Assembly: GCA_038851325.1 (NCBI GenBank)
Contig: JAWCKZ010000001.1
Coordinates: 35,769 to 99,768, forward strand
Length of the DNA: 64,000 nucleotides
Direction: 5' to 3'
Source of the DNA: Candidatus Bilamarchaeaceae archaeon
GTDB lineage: Archaea; Micrarchaeota; Micrarchaeia; Anstonellales; Bilamarchaeaceae
Part shown: positions 30,503 to 46,232 of the stretch, in pieces
How positions within the stretch are numbered: the first letter of the stretch is position 1
Layout: each line of letters opens with the position of its first letter
Program-made: the position numbers and the translations under genes
The notes under the pieces: generated by a model
Seen by the model: only the letters and a program-made list of their open reading frames with translations
Database searches by the model: none
Told to the model about the DNA's origin: nothing

Positions 30503-30576
30503 CGGGCCCGACGCGATTTGAACGCGTACCCCAAGGTCCGAAGCCTTGTCGGCTATCCAGGTTACCACACGGGCCC
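30503..30576 (-). tRNA. tRNA-Arg (anticodon TCG)
   Basis: Hand-folded cloverleaf on the minus strand: GGGCCCG acceptor, D-stem with two G·U pairs, anticodon stem CAAGG/CCTTG with loop CTTCGGA, T-arm ACGCG-TTCAAAT-CGCGT, acceptor CGGGCCC and discriminator G. No intron. Confidence 0.7.
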
Positions 30577-30880
30577 TTTTTATGTATTCCTCCTGTTTTC
30601 TTAAGTTTCTTTCTGTTTTCTCTGTTTTCTAAATGTTTTCTATGTGCCGTGGGCTTATGTTTTTCTCAGGCCACGGCGGTCGTGGAGGTTTTCTTACTAT
30701 TTAGGTTTTCTTACTGGTTTTTTAAGTTTCTTTCTGTTTTCTCTGCTTTCTAAATGTTTTCAAGGTGCCGCAGGCTTGCTGTTTCTCTCAGGCTGCGGCG
30801 GTCGTGGAGGTTTTCTTACTGGTTCTTTAAGTTTTTTTCTGTTTTCGCTATCTTTCTCATTGTGTTATATTTAAAAACGA
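30577..30880 (-). repeat. about 2.5 tandem copies of a ~105-nt RNA-gene-associated repeat module, co-oriented with and immediately 5' of tRNA-Arg(TCG)
   Basis: The reverse complement matches the modules at 44599..44717 and 45876..46126 (…cctccacgaccgCCGTGGcctgagaaaaacataagcCCACGGcacatagaaaacatttagaaaacagagaaaacagaaagaaacttaagaaaa…). The second copy has CCGCAG…CTGCGG arms, i.e. two compensatory changes. Confidence 0.8.
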
Positions 30881-42498: not shown

Positions 42499-43062
42499 GT
42501 GGTTGGTATGATAAAGAAGTGCTGGTATGCAAAAGATAGTGTGCCAATGAAAAACGAGGAAACCAAAAATAATGAGAAAAAAATAAGAAAATTGATAAGT
42601 AGCGTTCCAGGGCTAAAAGAAGGATTAATGATTACTGGGATTATGCTTACTCTCCCGTTATGTCAAATCAACGAAACAGGGCGTAGTAATAAATCGTCCC
42701 GACCTTATGTTGTGCAATCCGCTGTGGCTGAGAAGAAGCCACAACCATCGCTTATTTTACACGAAGGAATGCTCAAAGAATTAGTACTCCTTATGAAAGA
42801 GGGCAGTTCTGCCAGTTTCAGGCTAACTGAAAGAACTCAGACTGCGATATTCCTTAAGATAGTCAGCATATCTGAAGAGGGGGTGGACATTGCGCTTGGT
42901 ACAGAAATCCTTGGAGAAAAACCTGCCCGCCAAATTGTCAGAGTCAGTTATGGCGAAGCAGAGCTGGGGAACAACCCGATTAAGAAGCTTGCTGTAAAAA
43001 AAGAAAGCGATGGAGAAGTGACCATTAGAATATTCTTAAACACCAGCTTTAAACCTCAATGA
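42499..43062 (+). CDS. hypothetical protein (187 aa)
   Basis: ORF track only. Confidence 0.4.
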   Translation: MVGMIKKCWYAKDSVPMKNEETKNNEKKIRKLISSVPGLKEGLMITGIMLTLPLCQINETGRSNKSSRPYVVQSAVAEKKPQPSLILHEGMLKELVLLMKEGSSASFRLTERTQTAIFLKIVSISEEGVDIALGTEILGEKPARQIVRVSYGEAELGNNPIKKLAVKKESDGEVTIRIFLNTSFKPQ

Positions 43063-44278
43063 GTTCCTTGAAGAATTTTGGAAGTGCGAAAGCCGCTTTA
43101 TGTATCTCTGGAGTATAGTATTGTAATCCTTTTAACTCCCGCGCTCTTTTTTCGTCAAATTTAAATGGGTCGTATTTTTTTGAGCAAAAAGAAAATCCTA
43201 TAACCCCGCTCGGATAGGTCGGCACATTCGCATAATAATATTTGTATATTGGAAATAGTTTCTTGTTAAAGCATGCCATATCCTTCAAAAGGTCTTGATG
43301 GTAGTACATAGATTCTGATTGCGTTACCACGATTCCATCCGCCCTGCACGCATCTCTCAGATCTCTATAAAAATCCTCTTTGAAAAGCGGTTCTGCTGGA
43401 CCTACAGGATCAGACGAGTCAACGAGTATAACATCATAATAGTCTTTTTTTCCTTTTATGAATTTTGAGCCGTCTTCGTAGAATATCGTTAACCGTGGGT
43501 CGTTGAGTGCACAACTAACCTTCGGAAAATATTTTTTCGCTGCACCTACAACCATCTTATCTATCTCGCACATATGGATCTCGTTAACACACTTATGCTT
43601 TGCAATCTCGCGCACAGCGCCACCATCTCCTCCTCCTATGACAAGAACGCGCTGCGGGTTAGGATGAACAAGCAGAGGAACATGCACTATCATCTCATGA
43701 TAAACAAACTCGTCATATTCGGTGAGCATCACCGCACCATCAAGCACCATCATCCTTCCAAAATGATCTGTCTCAAAAATTTGCATGTGCTGGAAAGGTG
43801 AGTGCTCATCGTGCAATAGTTTCTTAATTCCGATTGATAGCGCTCTCCCTTTAAGCGTCTCTTCCTTTTCCTGGAATGCCGCTTTTCTATAAATCGTGTT
43901 TATCTTGTAATCCGCTGCGCCAAACCATTTTTTCGTAAACTCTGCTGCCTTATAGGGATCAAAGTGTTTACAACTGAAAATGTCAATATATGCATACCCT
44001 GCTTTTGTTTTTTGGTCTATTCCAAAATGGCCTGTAATTCCTGATGTTTCTATAAGCTGAAAAGCAGAGTAGCCTTTAACTCGTGGGTCTTCTCCGAAAT
44101 ATACAATATGTGGTTCACCGTATCTTTTCATATCTATCAGTTTGCACAGTTCTATTATCCACTGCTCGATTGTTTCCTTTGATTCGACTTTCTTAGAGTC
44201 GCACATAATTAGATCAACCGAAGCAAGCATCCCCCATACGCCAAACCTTTTGTATTCGTGTTCTGTATATTCGTACAT
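43049..44278 (-). CDS. speE: fused AdoMetDC-like domain + spermidine synthase (aminopropyltransferase)
   Basis: The N-terminal ~130 aa parallel AdoMetDC (…GYSAFQLIETSGITGHFGID…YAYIDIFSCKHF… versus canonical …ESHISIHTWPE…YAAVDIFTCG…). The C-terminal part is spermidine synthase (…VLVIGGGDGGAVRE…, …VDSSDPVGPA…). Confidence 0.75.
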   Translation of the reverse strand: MYEYTEHEYKRFGVWGMLASVDLIMCDSKKVESKETIEQWIIELCKLIDMKRYGEPHIVYFGEDPRVKGYSAFQLIETSGITGHFGIDQKTKAGYAYIDIFSCKHFDPYKAAEFTKKWFGAADYKINTIYRKAAFQEKEETLKGRALSIGIKKLLHDEHSPFQHMQIFETDHFGRMMVLDGAVMLTEYDEFVYHEMIVHVPLLVHPNPQRVLVIGGGDGGAVREIAKHKCVNEIHMCEIDKMVVGAAKKYFPKVSCALNDPRLTIFYEDGSKFIKGKKDYYDVILVDSSDPVGPAEPLFKEDFYRDLRDACRADGIVVTQSESMYYHQDLLKDMACFNKKLFPIYKYYYANVPTYPSGVIGFSFCSKKYDPFKFDEKRARELKGLQYYTPEIHKAAFALPKFFKELIEV

Positions 44279-44358
44279 CTGTCAACCCCCACATTCTAAT
44301 TCAAAATTTTATGTGCTCATATTAAATAAAAAATTTAAATGTATCATCATTGGTAGAA

Positions 44359-44510
44359 CCCTAAAACGCAGGGAGGGGGCTGATGTTTTCTTCTATTCCC
44401 CTCCCTTCATTTTTAGGGCTAATTCTGATTCCCTCCCTAAAACGCAGGGAGGGGGCTGATGTTTTCTTCTATTCCCCTCCCTTCATTTTTAGGGCTAATT
44501 CTGATTCCCT
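44359..44510 (+). repeat. two exact tandem copies of a 76-nt unit, each a long near-perfect hairpin (CCCTAAAA…GGGAGGGG…CCCCTCCC…TTTTTAGGG)
   Basis: Copy 1 at 44359-44434 and copy 2 at 44435-44510, read directly. ORF-track entries 44142..44459 and 44383..44628 are translations of this repeat. Confidence 0.85.
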
Positions 44511-44598
44511 CCCCTTTCTGTTTATTTATGTTTGTTTATTTATCTTTTTGTTTGTTTTATGTTTTTGTGTTTTTGTTTTGCGCCGATTTTATTTCAGA

Positions 44599-44717
44599 AG
44601 AAAACCTCCCACGACCGCCGTGGCCTGAGAGAAACATAAGTCCACGGCACATAGAAAACATTAGGAAAACAGAGAAAACAGAAAGAAACTTAAGAAAACA
44701 GGAGGAATACATAAAAA
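44599..44717 (+). repeat. single copy of the ~105-nt RNA-gene-associated module, ending exactly at the 5' end of the candidate ncRNA
   Basis: …gaaaacctcccacgaccgccgtggcctgagagaaacataagtccacggcacatagaaaacattaggaaaacagagaaaacagaaagaaacttaagaaaacaggaggaatacataaaaag. The last ~30 nt are identical to the 30 nt preceding tRNA-Arg(TCG). Confidence 0.8.
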
Positions 44718-44923
44718 GGTGAGGAGAGTAGTCTGCCTTCTGTTGTAGCGGCATTTTACTACGCGGCGTAAAGCCTTGCACAATCATCGAAAGGAAAGCG
44801 TCCGTTTCATCCAAGTCAAAGCTTGGTATCGTTTCTGTTACGCTTTCAGCTCCTTAAGAGCATCACATTCTCTTGTGGGCAGAACTTCCTCCGAATCATT
44901 CGGTGAGCCGCTCTCTCCTCACC
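44718..44923 (+). ncRNA. candidate structured ncRNA (~206 nt) closed by an 11-bp terminal helix; identity unresolved (SRP RNA-like or RNase P-like motifs)
   Basis: 5' GGTGAGGAGAG pairs perfectly with 3' CTCTCTCCTCACC. Internal hairpins include CCAAG-TCAAAG-CTTGG and CCGAA-TCA-TTCGG, plus a GNRA-tetraloop-like …UCGAAAGGAAAGCGUCCG…. No ORF of at least 60 aa on this strand. It sits where the repeat module otherwise precedes tRNAs. Confidence 0.5.
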
Positions 44924-45214
44924 ATATTTATCTGGAATTTGAAGGATTTAAATCTTTGCAGGGCATCAAGCTTTTCGCTCCTTTACTTCCACTTGTTCTT
45001 GACTTGCTTTTCAGATAAAATTCGGCGAGTGAAATGTTTATTATTCTGCTAGGCCAAAGCAAACAACTGAGAGAATACTAAAGATACCTGTGAATAGCGC
45101 AGCGCCCAAAATGAAAAGAGATTACTCTTATATAGCTAACTGCTTTTTACAATACAATCTATGATCAATCTATGATTTTGTTGTACATTTACTTAAGACC
45201 TTCTTTTACTAACG

Positions 45215-45222
45215 AAAAAAAA
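45215..45222 (-). terminator. oligo-T tract (T8 on the minus strand) immediately 3' of tRNA-Phe
   Basis: aaaaaaaa on the plus strand at 45215-45222, directly after the tRNA discriminator base. Confidence 0.4.
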
Positions 45223-45350
45223 TGCCGCGGGCCGGAGTTTTTGGCAGCTGCGCGGGCAGCCTGAACCAGCGACCCCTCGGTCTTCAGCCGAGTGCTCTCC
45301 CAACAGCACGCCCTAGTGGCGAACCACCCAGAGCTCTGAGCTACCGCGGC
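45223..45350 (-). tRNA. tRNA-Phe (anticodon GAA) with two non-canonical introns: about 32 nt in the D-loop and about 23 nt in the T-loop
   Basis: Minus-strand reading: GCCGCGG-TA-GCTC-AG[AGCTCTGGGTGGTTCGCCACTAGGGCGTGCTG]TTGGGA-GAGC-A-CTCGG-CTGAAGA-CCGAG-GGGTC-GCTGG-TTCA[GGCTGCCCGCGCAGCTGCCAAAA]ACT-CCGGC-CCGCGGC-A. Removing the bracketed segments gives a canonical 73-nt tRNA-Phe with the classic AGTTGGGAGAGC D-arm. Confidence 0.6.
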
Positions 45351-45395
45351 ACTGATAAGATGTTAATGCCAAAAAAATAAAAAATTTGGACAATC

Positions 45396-45485
45396 TTAAA
45401 ATTCTTCTTCCTCTTCTTCCTCCCATTCTTCTTCGTCTTCTTCCTCTTCCCACTCCTCTTCTTCATCTGCTTCGAAATGCCTCAT
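45396..45485 (-). CDS. possible 29-aa ultra-acidic mini-ORF (MRHFEADEEEEWEEEEDEEEWEEEEEEF)
   Basis: Read from the sequence. May simply be an artefact of a GAA/GAG-rich tract. Confidence 0.2.
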   Translation of the reverse strand: MRHFEADEEEEWEEEEDEEEWEEEEEEEF

Positions 45486-45539
45486 AGGATATCACCACTT
45501 AAAAACTGGAGAGTAATACATAGAAACTATTAAAAATGT

Positions 45540-45656
45540 TTAGCCGTCGCAAGCACCCCAGCCGCAGCTTAGACAAGTCATACAACCTTCTTGAAACACA
45601 AGCGGAGTATCGCAGACTGGACACAAACCATTTTTTATTTTTTCTTCGTCGCTCAT
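45540..45656 (-). CDS. possible 38-aa Cys4 zinc-ribbon mini-protein (MSDEEKIKNGLCPVCDTPLVFQEGCMTCLSCGWGACDG)
   Basis: ATG to TAA ORF with a CPVC…CLSC spacing typical of zinc ribbons. Under 60 aa, so absent from the ORF track. Confidence 0.4.
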   Translation of the reverse strand: MSDEEKIKNGLCPVCDTPLVFQEGCMTCLSCGWGACDG

Positions 45657-45875: not shown

Positions 45876-46126
45876 AAACTTACCTGAGAAAAACTAAACA
45901 GCTGCCGTGGCCTGAGAAAAACATAAGCCCACGGCACATAGAAAACATTTAGAAAACAGAGAAAACAGAAAGAAACTTAAGAAAATAGTAAGAAAACCTA
46001 AATAGTAAGAAAACCTCCACGACCGCCGTGGCCTGAGAAAAACATAAGCCCACGGCACCTTGAGAACATTTAGAAAACAGAGAAAACAGAAAGAAACTTA
46101 AGAAAATAGTAAGAATAAATAAAAAC
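45876..46126 (+). repeat. two tandem copies of the ~105-nt RNA-gene-associated module immediately 5' of tRNA-Arg(TCT)
   Basis: …ccgtggcctgagaaaaacataagcccacggcacatagaaaacatttagaaaacagagaaaacagaaagaaacttaagaaaatagtaagaaaacctaaatagtaagaaaacctccacgaccgccgtggcctgag… read directly. A TATA-like cttatataaa sits about 45 nt upstream, around 45829-45838. Confidence 0.8.
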
Positions 46127-46232
46127 GGGCCCGTGGCGCAGCCTGGATAGCGCAGCAGCCTTCTATGCGTTTCGAACTTCGTTCAAACCCCAAGAGAGCT
46201 GACGGTCGCGAGTTCAAATCTCGCCGGGCCCG
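46127..46232 (+). tRNA. tRNA-Arg (anticodon TCT) with a 31-nt intron at the canonical 37/38 position
   Basis: GGGCCCG-TG-GCGC-AGCCTGGATA-GCGC-A-GCAGC-CTTCTA[TGCGTTTCGAACTTCGTTCAAACCCCAAGAG]A-GCTGA-CGGTC-GCGAG-TTCAAAT-CTCGC-CGGGCCC-G. The T-arm and acceptor are perfect. The anticodon stem has one G/A mismatch at its base. Confidence 0.6.

What the first reader, a model, noticed from the sequence alone, without database searches (positions are those of the whole stretch)
44718..44923. Candidate ~206-nt structured ncRNA (possible reduced SRP RNA or RNase P RNA) preceded by the tRNA-type leader module
Immediately after a copy of the module that elsewhere precedes tRNAs, the sequence GGTGAGGAGAG… is closed 195 nt later by its perfect complement …CTCTCTCCTCACC. 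Between them are several clean hairpins (CCAAG-TCAAAG-CTTGG, CCGAA-TCA-TTCGG, GTAG…CTAC). A GNRA-type element …AUCGAAAGGAAAGCGUCCG… loosely resembles both the SRP RNA helix-8 motif (GGAAGGAAGCA) and the RNase P P4 strand (AGGAAAGUCCG). There is no coding potential on this strand. 206 nt is short for either archaeal 7S RNA or RNase P RNA, so this is either a reduced version or a different RNA.
Basis: partly seen in the sequence, partly recalled or inferred. Interest (0 to 1): 0.65.

Follow-up and report, generated by a model that had tools for sequence, protein, structure and literature searches.

The report
Minimal archaeal RNase P RNA gene
The flagged 206 bases are the gene for the RNA subunit of RNase P (the enzyme that trims the 5' ends of tRNAs) of a tiny DPANN archaeon; it lies on the opposite strand from the one proposed and is a very stripped-down but otherwise ordinary copy of a known housekeeping RNA.

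Summary
Window 44718-44923 is an RNase P RNA gene, but on the minus strand. Rfam's archaeal RNase P model matches end to end (95.6 bits, gathering score 84, E 2e-25), and no SRP family matches. The genome is a Micrarchaeia MAG lineage: its neighbour gene is 98% identical to one in 'Candidatus Bilamarchaeaceae archaeon' GCA_038890785.1, which carries an identical RNA.

All five conserved regions are present, as are P1-P5, P7, P9, P10/11, a 5-bp P12 and a 3-bp P15 hairpin. P8, L15/P16/P17 and P6 are absent, so the form is type-M-like with P12 cut short. It was the shortest of 66 full-length relatives (206-402 nt).

The helices covary: 86.9% of cells pair against 38-47% in slid controls, and 38 of 60 pairs show compensatory changes. 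A TATA box sits at -30..-23 on the minus strand, as in 63 homologues, and TTTTT follows the 3' end.

The "tRNA leader module" is a real five-copy repeat, but here it lies downstream of the RNA and points against it. Its role is unresolved.

One speculative extra is a K-turn-like loop between P5 and P7.

Verdict: the guess of RNase P was right, but the strand, motif reasoning and "leader" were wrong. This is a new member of a known kind.

The parts
44718..44923 (-). RNase P RNA gene (RPR), 206 nt, 50% GC in a ~42% GC genome
   Evidence: Rfam RF00373, 95.6 bits against a gathering score of 84, model positions 1-288 of 288. Own CM R1 scores 209.8 bits. The sequence is identical in GCA_038890785.1. 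Composition.
44913..44923 (-). P1 5' strand (pairs with 44718-44728), 11 bp perfect
   Evidence: 9 of 11 pairs show compensatory changes and 98.8% of cells pair in A1.
44907..44912 (-). P2 5' strand (pairs with 44747-44752), 6 bp
   Evidence: 5 of 6 pairs compensatory, 100% paired.
44891..44903 (-). P3 hairpin (5 bp, 3-nt loop)
   Evidence: 4 of 5 pairs compensatory.
44878..44890 (-). CR I / P4 5' strand, GAGGAAGUUCUGC. A38-C46 (44878-44886), with bulged U40 (44884), pair with 44730-44737.
   Evidence: P4 is 100% paired with 2 compensatory pairs. GAGGAAGUUC is invariant in A1.
44730..44743 (-). CR V / P4 3' strand, ACAGAAGGCAGACU
   Evidence: Aligned to the Rfam consensus ACAGAAGGgGGcUUA; pairing.
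44866..44877 (-). P5 5' strand (CACAA), GA, then P7 5' strand (GAAUG): the non-bulged strand of a K-turn-like internal loop
   Evidence: This is a motif match only, not tested.
44779..44793 (-). P7 3' strand (CUUUC), GAU-GA, then P5 3' strand (UUGUG): the bulged strand of the K-turn-like loop. It is an insertion relative to the Rfam consensus.
   Evidence: lower-case insert 'gaugau'. NNNGA recurs in about 20 relatives.
44849..44861 (-). P9 hairpin (GCUC UUAAG GAGC). Only 4 nt separate it from P7, so there is no P8.
   Evidence: The P8 slot is 2-5 nt in nearly all DPANN relatives.
44794..44847 (-). Core of the specificity domain: P10/11 (8 bp, 44840-44847 with 44794-44801), CR II ACAGAAACGA (44829-44838), P12 (44811-44826, 5 bp with a 6-nt loop), CR III GAUGAAACGG (44802-44811)
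   Evidence: All 8 P10/11 pairs are compensatory. CR II and CR III are invariant.
44765..44775 (-). Mini P15 hairpin (3 bp, loop UUUAC), which replaces L15/P16/P17. It is flanked by J5/15 CAA and J15/2 GCGUAGUAAAAU.
44946..44953 (-). TATA box ATTTAAAT at -30..-23, preceded by a purine-rich BRE-like AAAG, with an AT-rich element at about -10
   Evidence: In 63 homologues the AT fraction is 0.94 at -30..-26 on the sense side only.
44713..44717 (-). TTTTT immediately after the RNA's 3' end, a likely archaeal oligo-T terminator. Further T-runs follow, and a hairpin plus T-run lies at 44623-44609.
   Evidence: Function is inferred.
44596..44717 (+). Copy A of the ~120-nt repeated module (hairpin GCCGTGG...CCACGGC, A-tracts about 10 nt apart, promoter-like proximal end). 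It points against the RPR and abuts its 3' end.

Best explanation
This is the gene for the catalytic RNA subunit of ribonucleoprotein RNase P in a Micrarchaeia (DPANN) archaeon of the family Bilamarchaeaceae, encoded on the minus strand.

Expression (inferred). It is transcribed from its own BRE/TATA promoter, with the TATA box at -30..-23, so transcription starts at the first base of P1. It ends at the TTTTT that follows P1.

Structure (shown). The RNA folds into the standard RNase P core. P1, P2 and P3 and the P4 pseudoknot with its bulged U form the catalytic centre together with J5/15 and J15/2 (conserved regions CR I, IV and V). P7, P9, P10/11 and the two interleaved T-loop motifs CR II and CR III form a small specificity domain, which by analogy with solved RNase P structures reads the tRNA elbow. 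Every peripheral element has been lost: P8, L15/P16/P17/P6, the long P12 arm and the extra hairpins seen in relatives.

Function (inferred from family membership). With the archaeal protein subunits it removes 5' leaders from pre-tRNAs. There is no L15 to pair with a 3' CCA, which fits the three tRNA genes in the window, none of which encodes CCA. Like type M RNAs, it is probably inactive without its proteins.
For: - Rfam RNaseP_arch matches end to end on the minus strand: 95.6 bits, above the gathering score of 84, E 2e-25.
- All conserved regions align to the consensus.
- On a structure-blind MAFFT alignment of 8 DPANN homologues, 86.9% of cells pair, against 38-47% when partners are slid. 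38 of 60 pairs have compensatory changes, and 0 of 500 shuffles reach the observed values. The same holds on 67 distinct sequences (90.8% paired).
- 63 homologues share an AT-rich peak at -30..-26 and another at about -10 on the sense side only. The window fits this pattern on the minus strand.
- The RNA is 100% identical in a strain whose intergenic flanks differ, including 6 substitutions in the adjacent 50 nt of the module.
- Taxonomy comes from the 98%-identical neighbour gene and a syntenic locus in GCA_038890785.1.
- No tRNA gene in the window encodes CCA.
Against: - There is no expression or activity data.
- The RNase P protein genes were not looked for.
- P9, P12 and P15 are short and get only weak covariation support on the MAFFT alignment (56-73% paired).
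- A promoter-like repeat points into the gene from the other side, so the antisense strand may also be transcribed.
- Conservation between the two strains is weak evidence on its own. At the locus-wide divergence of 1.4%, the chance of zero changes in 206 nt is about 0.05.
Confidence: 0.95

Rival explanations
1. A plus-strand transcript is also made. The module copy A would act as a promoter that starts transcription at G44718, as it may do for the two tRNA-Arg genes, producing an RNA antisense to the RNase P RNA. This would add to the minus-strand gene, not replace it.
For: The proximal end of copy A is identical to that of the copy in front of tRNA-Arg(TCG): CTTAAGAAAACAGGAGGAATACATAAAAAGG. 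It sits at the same 19-20 nt from the start of the structured sequence. Its layout resembles the stable-RNA promoters seen here: GAAAG, then an A/T-rich block at -29..-20, then an AT-rich stretch at about -10, then G.
Against: CTTAAGAAAA is a poor TATA box next to the canonical ones in this region. No Rfam family matches the plus strand. Canonical TATA boxes lie upstream of the tandem modules at both tRNA-Arg loci, so the modules may be transcribed leaders and not promoters. The complement of the module is T-rich and terminator-like, which gives it a simpler role on the minus strand.
Confidence: 0.12
2. A decaying RNase P RNA gene: a relic on the way to loss, as in Nanoarchaeum equitans, that is no longer catalytically competent.
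For: It is the shortest of the 66 full-length relatives. [quoted passage not shown] Promoters of tRNA-Phe and perhaps tRNA-Arg lie about 21-34 nt from the mature 5' ends, which suggests very short leaders.
Against: All five conserved regions and the P4 bulged U are intact. The helices are kept by compensatory changes across the clade. A canonical promoter is in place. There are no substitutions against a strain with diverged flanks.
Confidence: 0.03
3. A reduced SRP (7S) RNA.
Against: No SRP family appears in an E<=10 scan of 44300-45300 on either strand, while RNase P scores E 4e-27.
Confidence: 0.005

Closest known systems
Type M archaeal RNase P RNA (Methanococcales, Archaeoglobus fulgidus; e.g. 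Methanocaldococcus jannaschii RPR)
   Same: It has no P8. L15, P16, P17 and P6 are missing, and P15 is a closed hairpin. CR I-V, P10/11 and both T-loop motifs are kept (definition from PMC3579882).
   Different: P12 is only 5 bp with a 6-nt loop, so the double K-turn that binds two L7Ae copies in type M and type A RNAs (PMC5499556) has no room. The RNA comes from a DPANN archaeon, not a euryarchaeon. It has a clade-specific 5-nt insertion between P7 and P5 that gives a K-turn-like loop.
Type T RNase P RNA (Thermoproteaceae; Rfam RNaseP-T)
   Same: Both are archaeal RNase P RNAs in which the specificity domain has been shortened.
   Different: Type T has a 3-bp P2 and a 2-nt P5/P15 linker, and it lacks P11/P12 and one T-loop (PMC3579882, PMC13462272). 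This RNA has a 6-bp P2, a 3-nt linker (CAA), P10/11/P12 and both T-loops.
RNase P RNAs of other DPANN MAGs (Micrarchaeota, Iainarchaeota, Aenigmarchaeota) retrieved here
   Same: The core is the same. GAGGAAGUUCUG is invariant, P8 is absent, P15 is the same mini hairpin and the promoter layout matches. Several are 208-225 nt.
   Different: Close relatives (L041, L144, L140, L122, L141) carry two extra hairpins of about 50 nt in total before J15/2, and some have a long P12. The window's copy lacks every optional element.
RNase P RNA of the nanoarchaeon Nst1, and the RNase P-free Nanoarchaeum equitans
   Same: All are examples of RNase P reduction within the DPANN lineage (PMC3655853, PMC4919917).
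   Different: The Nst1 RNA was reported as unfoldable into a typical structure. This one folds into a complete canonical core.

Membership tests
Archaeal RNase P RNA (Rfam RF00373) | Covariance-model score at or above the curated gathering threshold, over the full model | tested here: met
   95.6 bits against 84, model positions 1-288 of 288, minus strand
Archaeal RNase P RNA (Rfam RF00373) | P4 pseudoknot with a bulged U, and conserved regions CR I and CR V | tested here: met
   AG[U]UCUGCC pairs with GGCAGACU; 100% of cells pair and 2 pairs are compensatory
Archaeal RNase P RNA (Rfam RF00373) | CR II and CR III (interleaved T-loop motifs flanking P12) and CR IV (J5/15, J15/2) | tested here: met
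   ACAGAAACGA and GAUGAAACGG are invariant in the alignment; GCAAG and UAGU..AAU align to the consensus
Archaeal RNase P RNA (Rfam RF00373) | Helices supported by covariation in relatives | tested here: met
   86.9% paired against 38-47% when slid; 38 of 60 pairs compensatory; 90.8% paired on 67 sequences
Archaeal RNase P RNA (Rfam RF00373) | Cleaves pre-tRNA 5' leaders together with Pop5, Rpp30, Rpp29, Rpp21 and L7Ae | not testable with these tools
Type M RPR | P8 absent | tested here: met
   Only 4 nt (UGAU) lie between the P7 5' strand and P9
Type M RPR | L15, P16, P17 and P6 absent | tested here: met
   P15 is an 11-nt closed hairpin, and J5/7 is 2 nt (3 nt in Rfam's register), too short for a P6 strand
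Type M RPR | Double K-turn in P12 that binds L7Ae (PMC5499556) | tested here: not met
   P12 is 5 bp with a hexaloop, 16 nt in all
Type T RPR | 3-bp P2, 2-nt P5/P15 linker, and P10 capped by a small loop or absent, so no P11/P12 (PMC3579882) | tested here: not met
   P2 is 6 bp, the linker is CAA, and P10/11, P12 and both T-loops are present
Type A RPR | P8 and the P15-L15-P16-P17/P6 module present | tested here: not met
   Both are deleted relative to the Rfam consensus
Archaeal SRP RNA | Match to an Rfam SRP model | tested here: not met
   No SRP family at E<=10 on either strand of 44300-45300
K-turn (L7Ae-binding motif) | C stem, then a 3-nt bulge, then tandem sheared G.A/A.G pairs, then an NC stem | tested here: inconclusive
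   The sequence fits: CUUUC-GAU-GA-UUGUG opposite CACAA-GA-GAAUG. NNNGA/GA recurs in about 13-20 relatives. There is no structural or binding test, and some relatives have an extra nucleotide or AAA in place of NGA.

The most novel reading that the evidence does not exclude
Micrarchaeia and their allies may carry a distinct, so far unclassified grade of archaeal RNase P RNA. It would be type-M-like but lack the P12 double K-turn, and it would have a new K-turn at the P5-P7 junction that relocates the L7Ae site (or dispenses with L7Ae). The window's 206-nt copy would be its minimal form. This sits in a lineage whose stable-RNA promoters lie about 25 nt from the mature 5' ends, which would make it an intermediate towards the RNase P-free state of Nanoarchaeum equitans.
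Probability: 0.2. Interest if true: 0.55.

Novelty: new member of a known kind. Interest (0 to 1): 0.3.

Why it matters
For annotation, this settles a housekeeping gene and corrects its strand, and standard Rfam-based pipelines would find it anyway.

For RNase P biology it is a modest data point. The type-M-like architecture is not confined to Methanococcales and Archaeoglobaceae; it is the rule in the DPANN sequences sampled here. An RNA of 206 nt can still keep both domains and all five conserved regions. The papers read here list only types A, M and T (PMC13462272, PMC3579882), so a systematic description of the DPANN forms, and a test of where or whether L7Ae binds them, would be a small but real addition.

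Tried and rejected
- SRP RNA: no hit.
- Plus-strand gene: there is no family match on that strand, and the family's conserved promoter pattern is on the other side.
- Type T and type A membership: defining features are not met.
- First genome-wide pattern scan, ACAGAAACGAN{8,38}GATGAAACG: too loose.
- Module core in JGI metagenomes: 0 hits, so the module's wider distribution could not be studied.
- Metagenome scan for closer RNA relatives: 39 loci, none closer than L051.
- Neighbour-gene route: SpeD-SpeE homologues at 73-78% identity are not syntenic and have no RNase P RNA nearby. Only the 98% strain is syntenic.
- ARAGORN on 30 relatives' loci: too few tRNAs to test promoter-to-tRNA spacing statistically.
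- H/ACA or C/D sRNA reading of the module hairpin: considered by eye and dropped. The ACA is not conserved in copies C and E, and there is no C box.
- Inversion of the gene by recombination between the P1 arms, as an explanation for the module's orientation: considered and thought unlikely, because the minus-strand promoter is canonical and correctly spaced.

Full report
**What is at the coordinates**

A gathering-threshold Rfam scan of the whole window gives two hits. One is RF00373 (archaeal RNase P RNA) at 44718-44923 on the minus strand: 95.6 bits against a gathering score of 84, E 2.3e-25, covering model positions 1-288 of 288. A permissive scan (E<=10) of 44300-45300 on both strands adds only noise-level matches and no SRP family.

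Both strands fold about equally well (z -3.67 and -3.44), so thermodynamics cannot choose between them. A perfect 11-bp inverted repeat within 250 nt is expected about six times in 64 kb of this composition, so the terminal helix alone is not evidence of anything.

**Structure**

I derived the structure from the Rfam alignment and checked it by hand. RNA positions are given, with position 1 = window 44923.

| Element | RNA positions | Notes |
|---|---|---|
| P1 | 1-11 / 196-206 | 11 bp, perfect |
| P2 | 12-17 / 172-177 | 6 bp |
| P3 | 21-25 / 29-33 | 5 bp, 3-nt loop |
| P4 | 38-46 / 187-194 | bulged U40 |
| P5 | 47-51 / 141-145 | |
| P7 | 54-58 / 131-135 | |
| P9 | 63-66 / 72-75 | |
| P10/11 | 77-84 / 123-130 | 8 bp |
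| CR II | 86-95 | ACAGAAACGA |
| P12 | 98-102 / 109-113 | 5 bp, hexaloop |
| CR III | 113-122 | GAUGAAACGG |
| P15 | 149-151 / 157-159 | 3-bp hairpin |

J15/2 and CR V follow P15. Relative to the Rfam consensus, P8 is deleted, P12 shrinks from 46 to 9 unaligned positions, and the P15-P17 region shrinks from 39 to 5.

The 'GTAG...CTAC' hairpin and the 'P4/helix-8-like' motif are artefacts of reading the wrong strand.

**Organism**

- A tRNA with a 33-nt intron and a PolD small subunit indicate a non-crenarchaeal archaeon.
- The adjacent SpeD-SpeE fusion protein is 98% identical to a protein of 'Candidatus Bilamarchaeaceae archaeon'.
- Its contig, GCA_038890785.1 JAWAFB010000001.1, is syntenic and 97-98% identical in DNA. 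The lineage is Nanobdellati (DPANN) / Micrarchaeia / Anstonellales.
- That strain's RNase P RNA is identical base for base, while the neighbouring intergenic DNA has substitutions and indels.

**Relatives and covariation**

Pattern scans of the genome and metagenome collections retrieved the homologues. The nearest, ranked by nhmmer, are Micrarchaeota and Iainarchaeota MAGs. Rfam finds full-length RNase P RNAs of 208-227 nt in seven of them.

On a structure-blind MAFFT alignment of eight short homologues, the proposed structure gives:
- 86.9% standard pairs, against 38-47% when partners are slid by 1-3 columns;
- 38 of 60 pairs with changes on both sides;
- 0 of 500 shuffles reaching the observed values.

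P1, P2, P3, P4 and P10/11 are especially clean.

A CM built from that alignment finds 69 matches. The full-length ones span 206-402 nt, and the window's is the shortest. On that model-fitted alignment, 90.8% of cells pair and 49 of 52 pairs are compensatory. This alignment leans towards the structure it was fitted to.

**Structural type**

Type M is defined by loss of P8 and of L15/P16/P17/P6 (PMC3579882). Both hold here and in essentially all DPANN sequences sampled: the P8 slot is 2-5 nt, and P15 is a hairpin of roughly 8-17 nt in all of them, including those whose P15 region is longer.

Type T features (3-bp P2, 2-nt P5/P15 linker, no P11/P12) are not met.

Unlike characterised type A and type M RNAs, whose P12 holds a double K-turn that binds L7Ae (PMC5499556), P12 here is only 16 nt.

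Close relatives (L041, L144, L140, L122, L141) share the mini-P15 but carry two extra hairpins before J15/2, and some have a long P12. The window and L051 lack them. The window's RNA is thus the most stripped version of a DPANN-wide, type-M-like family.

The papers read here list only types A, M and T (PMC13462272). They mention DPANN only through Nst1, whose RNA is very short and was reported as not foldable, and N. equitans, which has none (PMC3655853, PMC4919917).

**Expression signals**

On the minus strand, ATTTAAAT lies at -30..-23 (44946-44953), preceded by AAAG and followed by an AT-rich stretch at about -10. Across 63 homologues the AT fraction is 0.94 at -30..-26 and 0.80 at -10..-6 on the sense side, with nothing comparable on the other side. 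Transcription therefore probably starts at the first base of P1. TTTTT follows the 3' end directly. These functions are inferred, not shown.

**The 'leader module'**

The module is real. There are five copies of about 120 nt:
- a tandem pair in front of tRNA-Arg(UCU) at 46127 (+);
- a tandem pair in front of tRNA-Arg(TCG) at 30576 (-);
- one copy at 44596-44717 (+).

Each copy has three parts:
- a hairpin whose stem is kept by a double compensatory change in one copy (GCCGTGG/CCACGGC against GCCGCAG/CTGCGGC);
- A-tracts spaced about 10 nt apart;
- a proximal end that is identical in the RNase P-side copy and the tRNA-Arg(TCG) copy.

The repeat core (the 35-nt search pattern) ends 19-20 nt before the structured RNA in all three places; the module itself runs right up to it. 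Relative to the RNase P RNA, however, the module lies 3' and points the other way, so it cannot be that RNA's leader.

Its complement supplies the T-runs, and a hairpin plus T-run, that could terminate the RNase P transcript. It might also fire an antisense transcript. Whether it acts as a promoter or as a transcribed leader for the tRNA-Arg genes cannot be decided, because canonical TATA boxes also lie upstream of both tandem pairs. The module core has no match in the JGI metagenomes.

**Speculative extra**

Between P5 and P7 the RNA has a clade-specific insertion, shown in lower case. It gives 5'-CACAA-GA-GAAUG on one strand and CUUUC-GAU-GA-UUGUG on the other. This is the layout of a simple K-turn with P7 as the C stem and P5 as the NC stem.

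NNNGA next to P5, and (N)GA next to P7, recur in about 13-20 relatives. P7 itself covaries: GGAUG/CUUCC, GGAUG/CAUCC and GAAUG/CUUUC. This could be a relocated L7Ae site. It rests on a motif match only.

**Verdict**

This is an ordinary, essential gene that standard tools identify correctly. The interest is modest: it is a minimal, type-M-like RNase P RNA in a DPANN archaeon, with an unexplained repeat abutting its 3' end.

Noticed in passing
window 45223-45350 (-): tRNA-Phe(GAA) gene with two non-canonical introns (about 32 nt in the D-loop, about 21-25 nt in the T-loop). ARAGORN and the Rfam gathering scan both missed it. After in-silico removal of the introns, ARAGORN calls tRNA-Phe. It is followed by T7 and does not encode CCA.
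   Followed up: yes
window 44596-44717 (+), 45883-46126 (+, two tandem copies), 30577-30820 (-, two tandem copies): A ~120-nt repeated intergenic module with a hairpin that shows a compensatory double change in one copy, AGAAAAC tracts about 10 nt apart, and a promoter-like proximal end. The module runs right up to the first base of two paralogous tRNA-Arg genes and to the 3' end of the RNase P RNA, with the repeat core ending 19-20 nt before each. Its function is unknown (promoter/upstream element, leader or terminator). The core has no match in JGI metagenomes.
   Followed up: partly
L051 6489-6845; L041 3297-3718; L140 171-591; window 44718-45350: In three Micrarchaeota relatives the RNase P RNA and a tRNA (tRNA-Phe in L140 and, from its 5' sequence, L051; not typed in L041) are divergent neighbours only 44-46 nt apart, which suggests back-to-back promoters. 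In the window the tRNA-Phe lies 300 nt upstream on the same strand, so a local inversion has occurred.
   Followed up: partly
window 44866-44877 and 44779-44793 (-): K-turn-like internal loop between P5 and P7 of the RNase P RNA. It is clade-specific and is not a known L7Ae site in RNase P.
   Followed up: partly
window 44359-44510: Perfect tandem duplication of a 76-nt unit containing inverted repeats (AAAACGCAGGGAGGGG / CCCCTCCCTTCATTTT). The sister strain L161 has one copy fewer.
   Followed up: partly
window 44515-44580 (+): Array of T-tracts with a 10-11 nt period (TTTATGTTTGTTTA-like), that is, phased A/T tracts that may bend the DNA. It lies between the SpeD-SpeE promoter region and the module.
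   Followed up: no
window ~45043 vs L161 5133-5318: A 186-bp indel between the two strains. The extra DNA in L161 carries a called 54-aa ORF.
   Followed up: no
window 46127-46232 (+): tRNA-Arg(UCU) with a 33-nt intron, found by Rfam but missed by ARAGORN. ARAGORN called only one tRNA (tRNA-Arg TCG, 30503-30576) in the whole 64-kb window.
   Followed up: partly
window 43049-44278 (-): Fusion protein of S-adenosylmethionine decarboxylase (SpeD) and spermidine synthase (SpeE), 409 aa. The fusion recurs in Micrarchaeota and Diapherotrites homologues.
   Followed up: partly
window 45353-45400 (-) and 44924-44953 (-): The A/T-rich promoter boxes of tRNA-Phe (about -34..-21) and the RNase P RNA (-30..-23) are placed so that transcription should start at or within a few bases of the mature 5' ends. 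This implies very short tRNA leaders in this organism.
   Followed up: partly
window ~45395-45490 (-) and ~45540-45656 (-): Two very small ORFs seen by eye: a 29-aa highly acidic peptide (MRHFEADEEEEWEEEEDEEEW...) and a 38-aa four-cysteine zinc-ribbon-like peptide.
   Followed up: no
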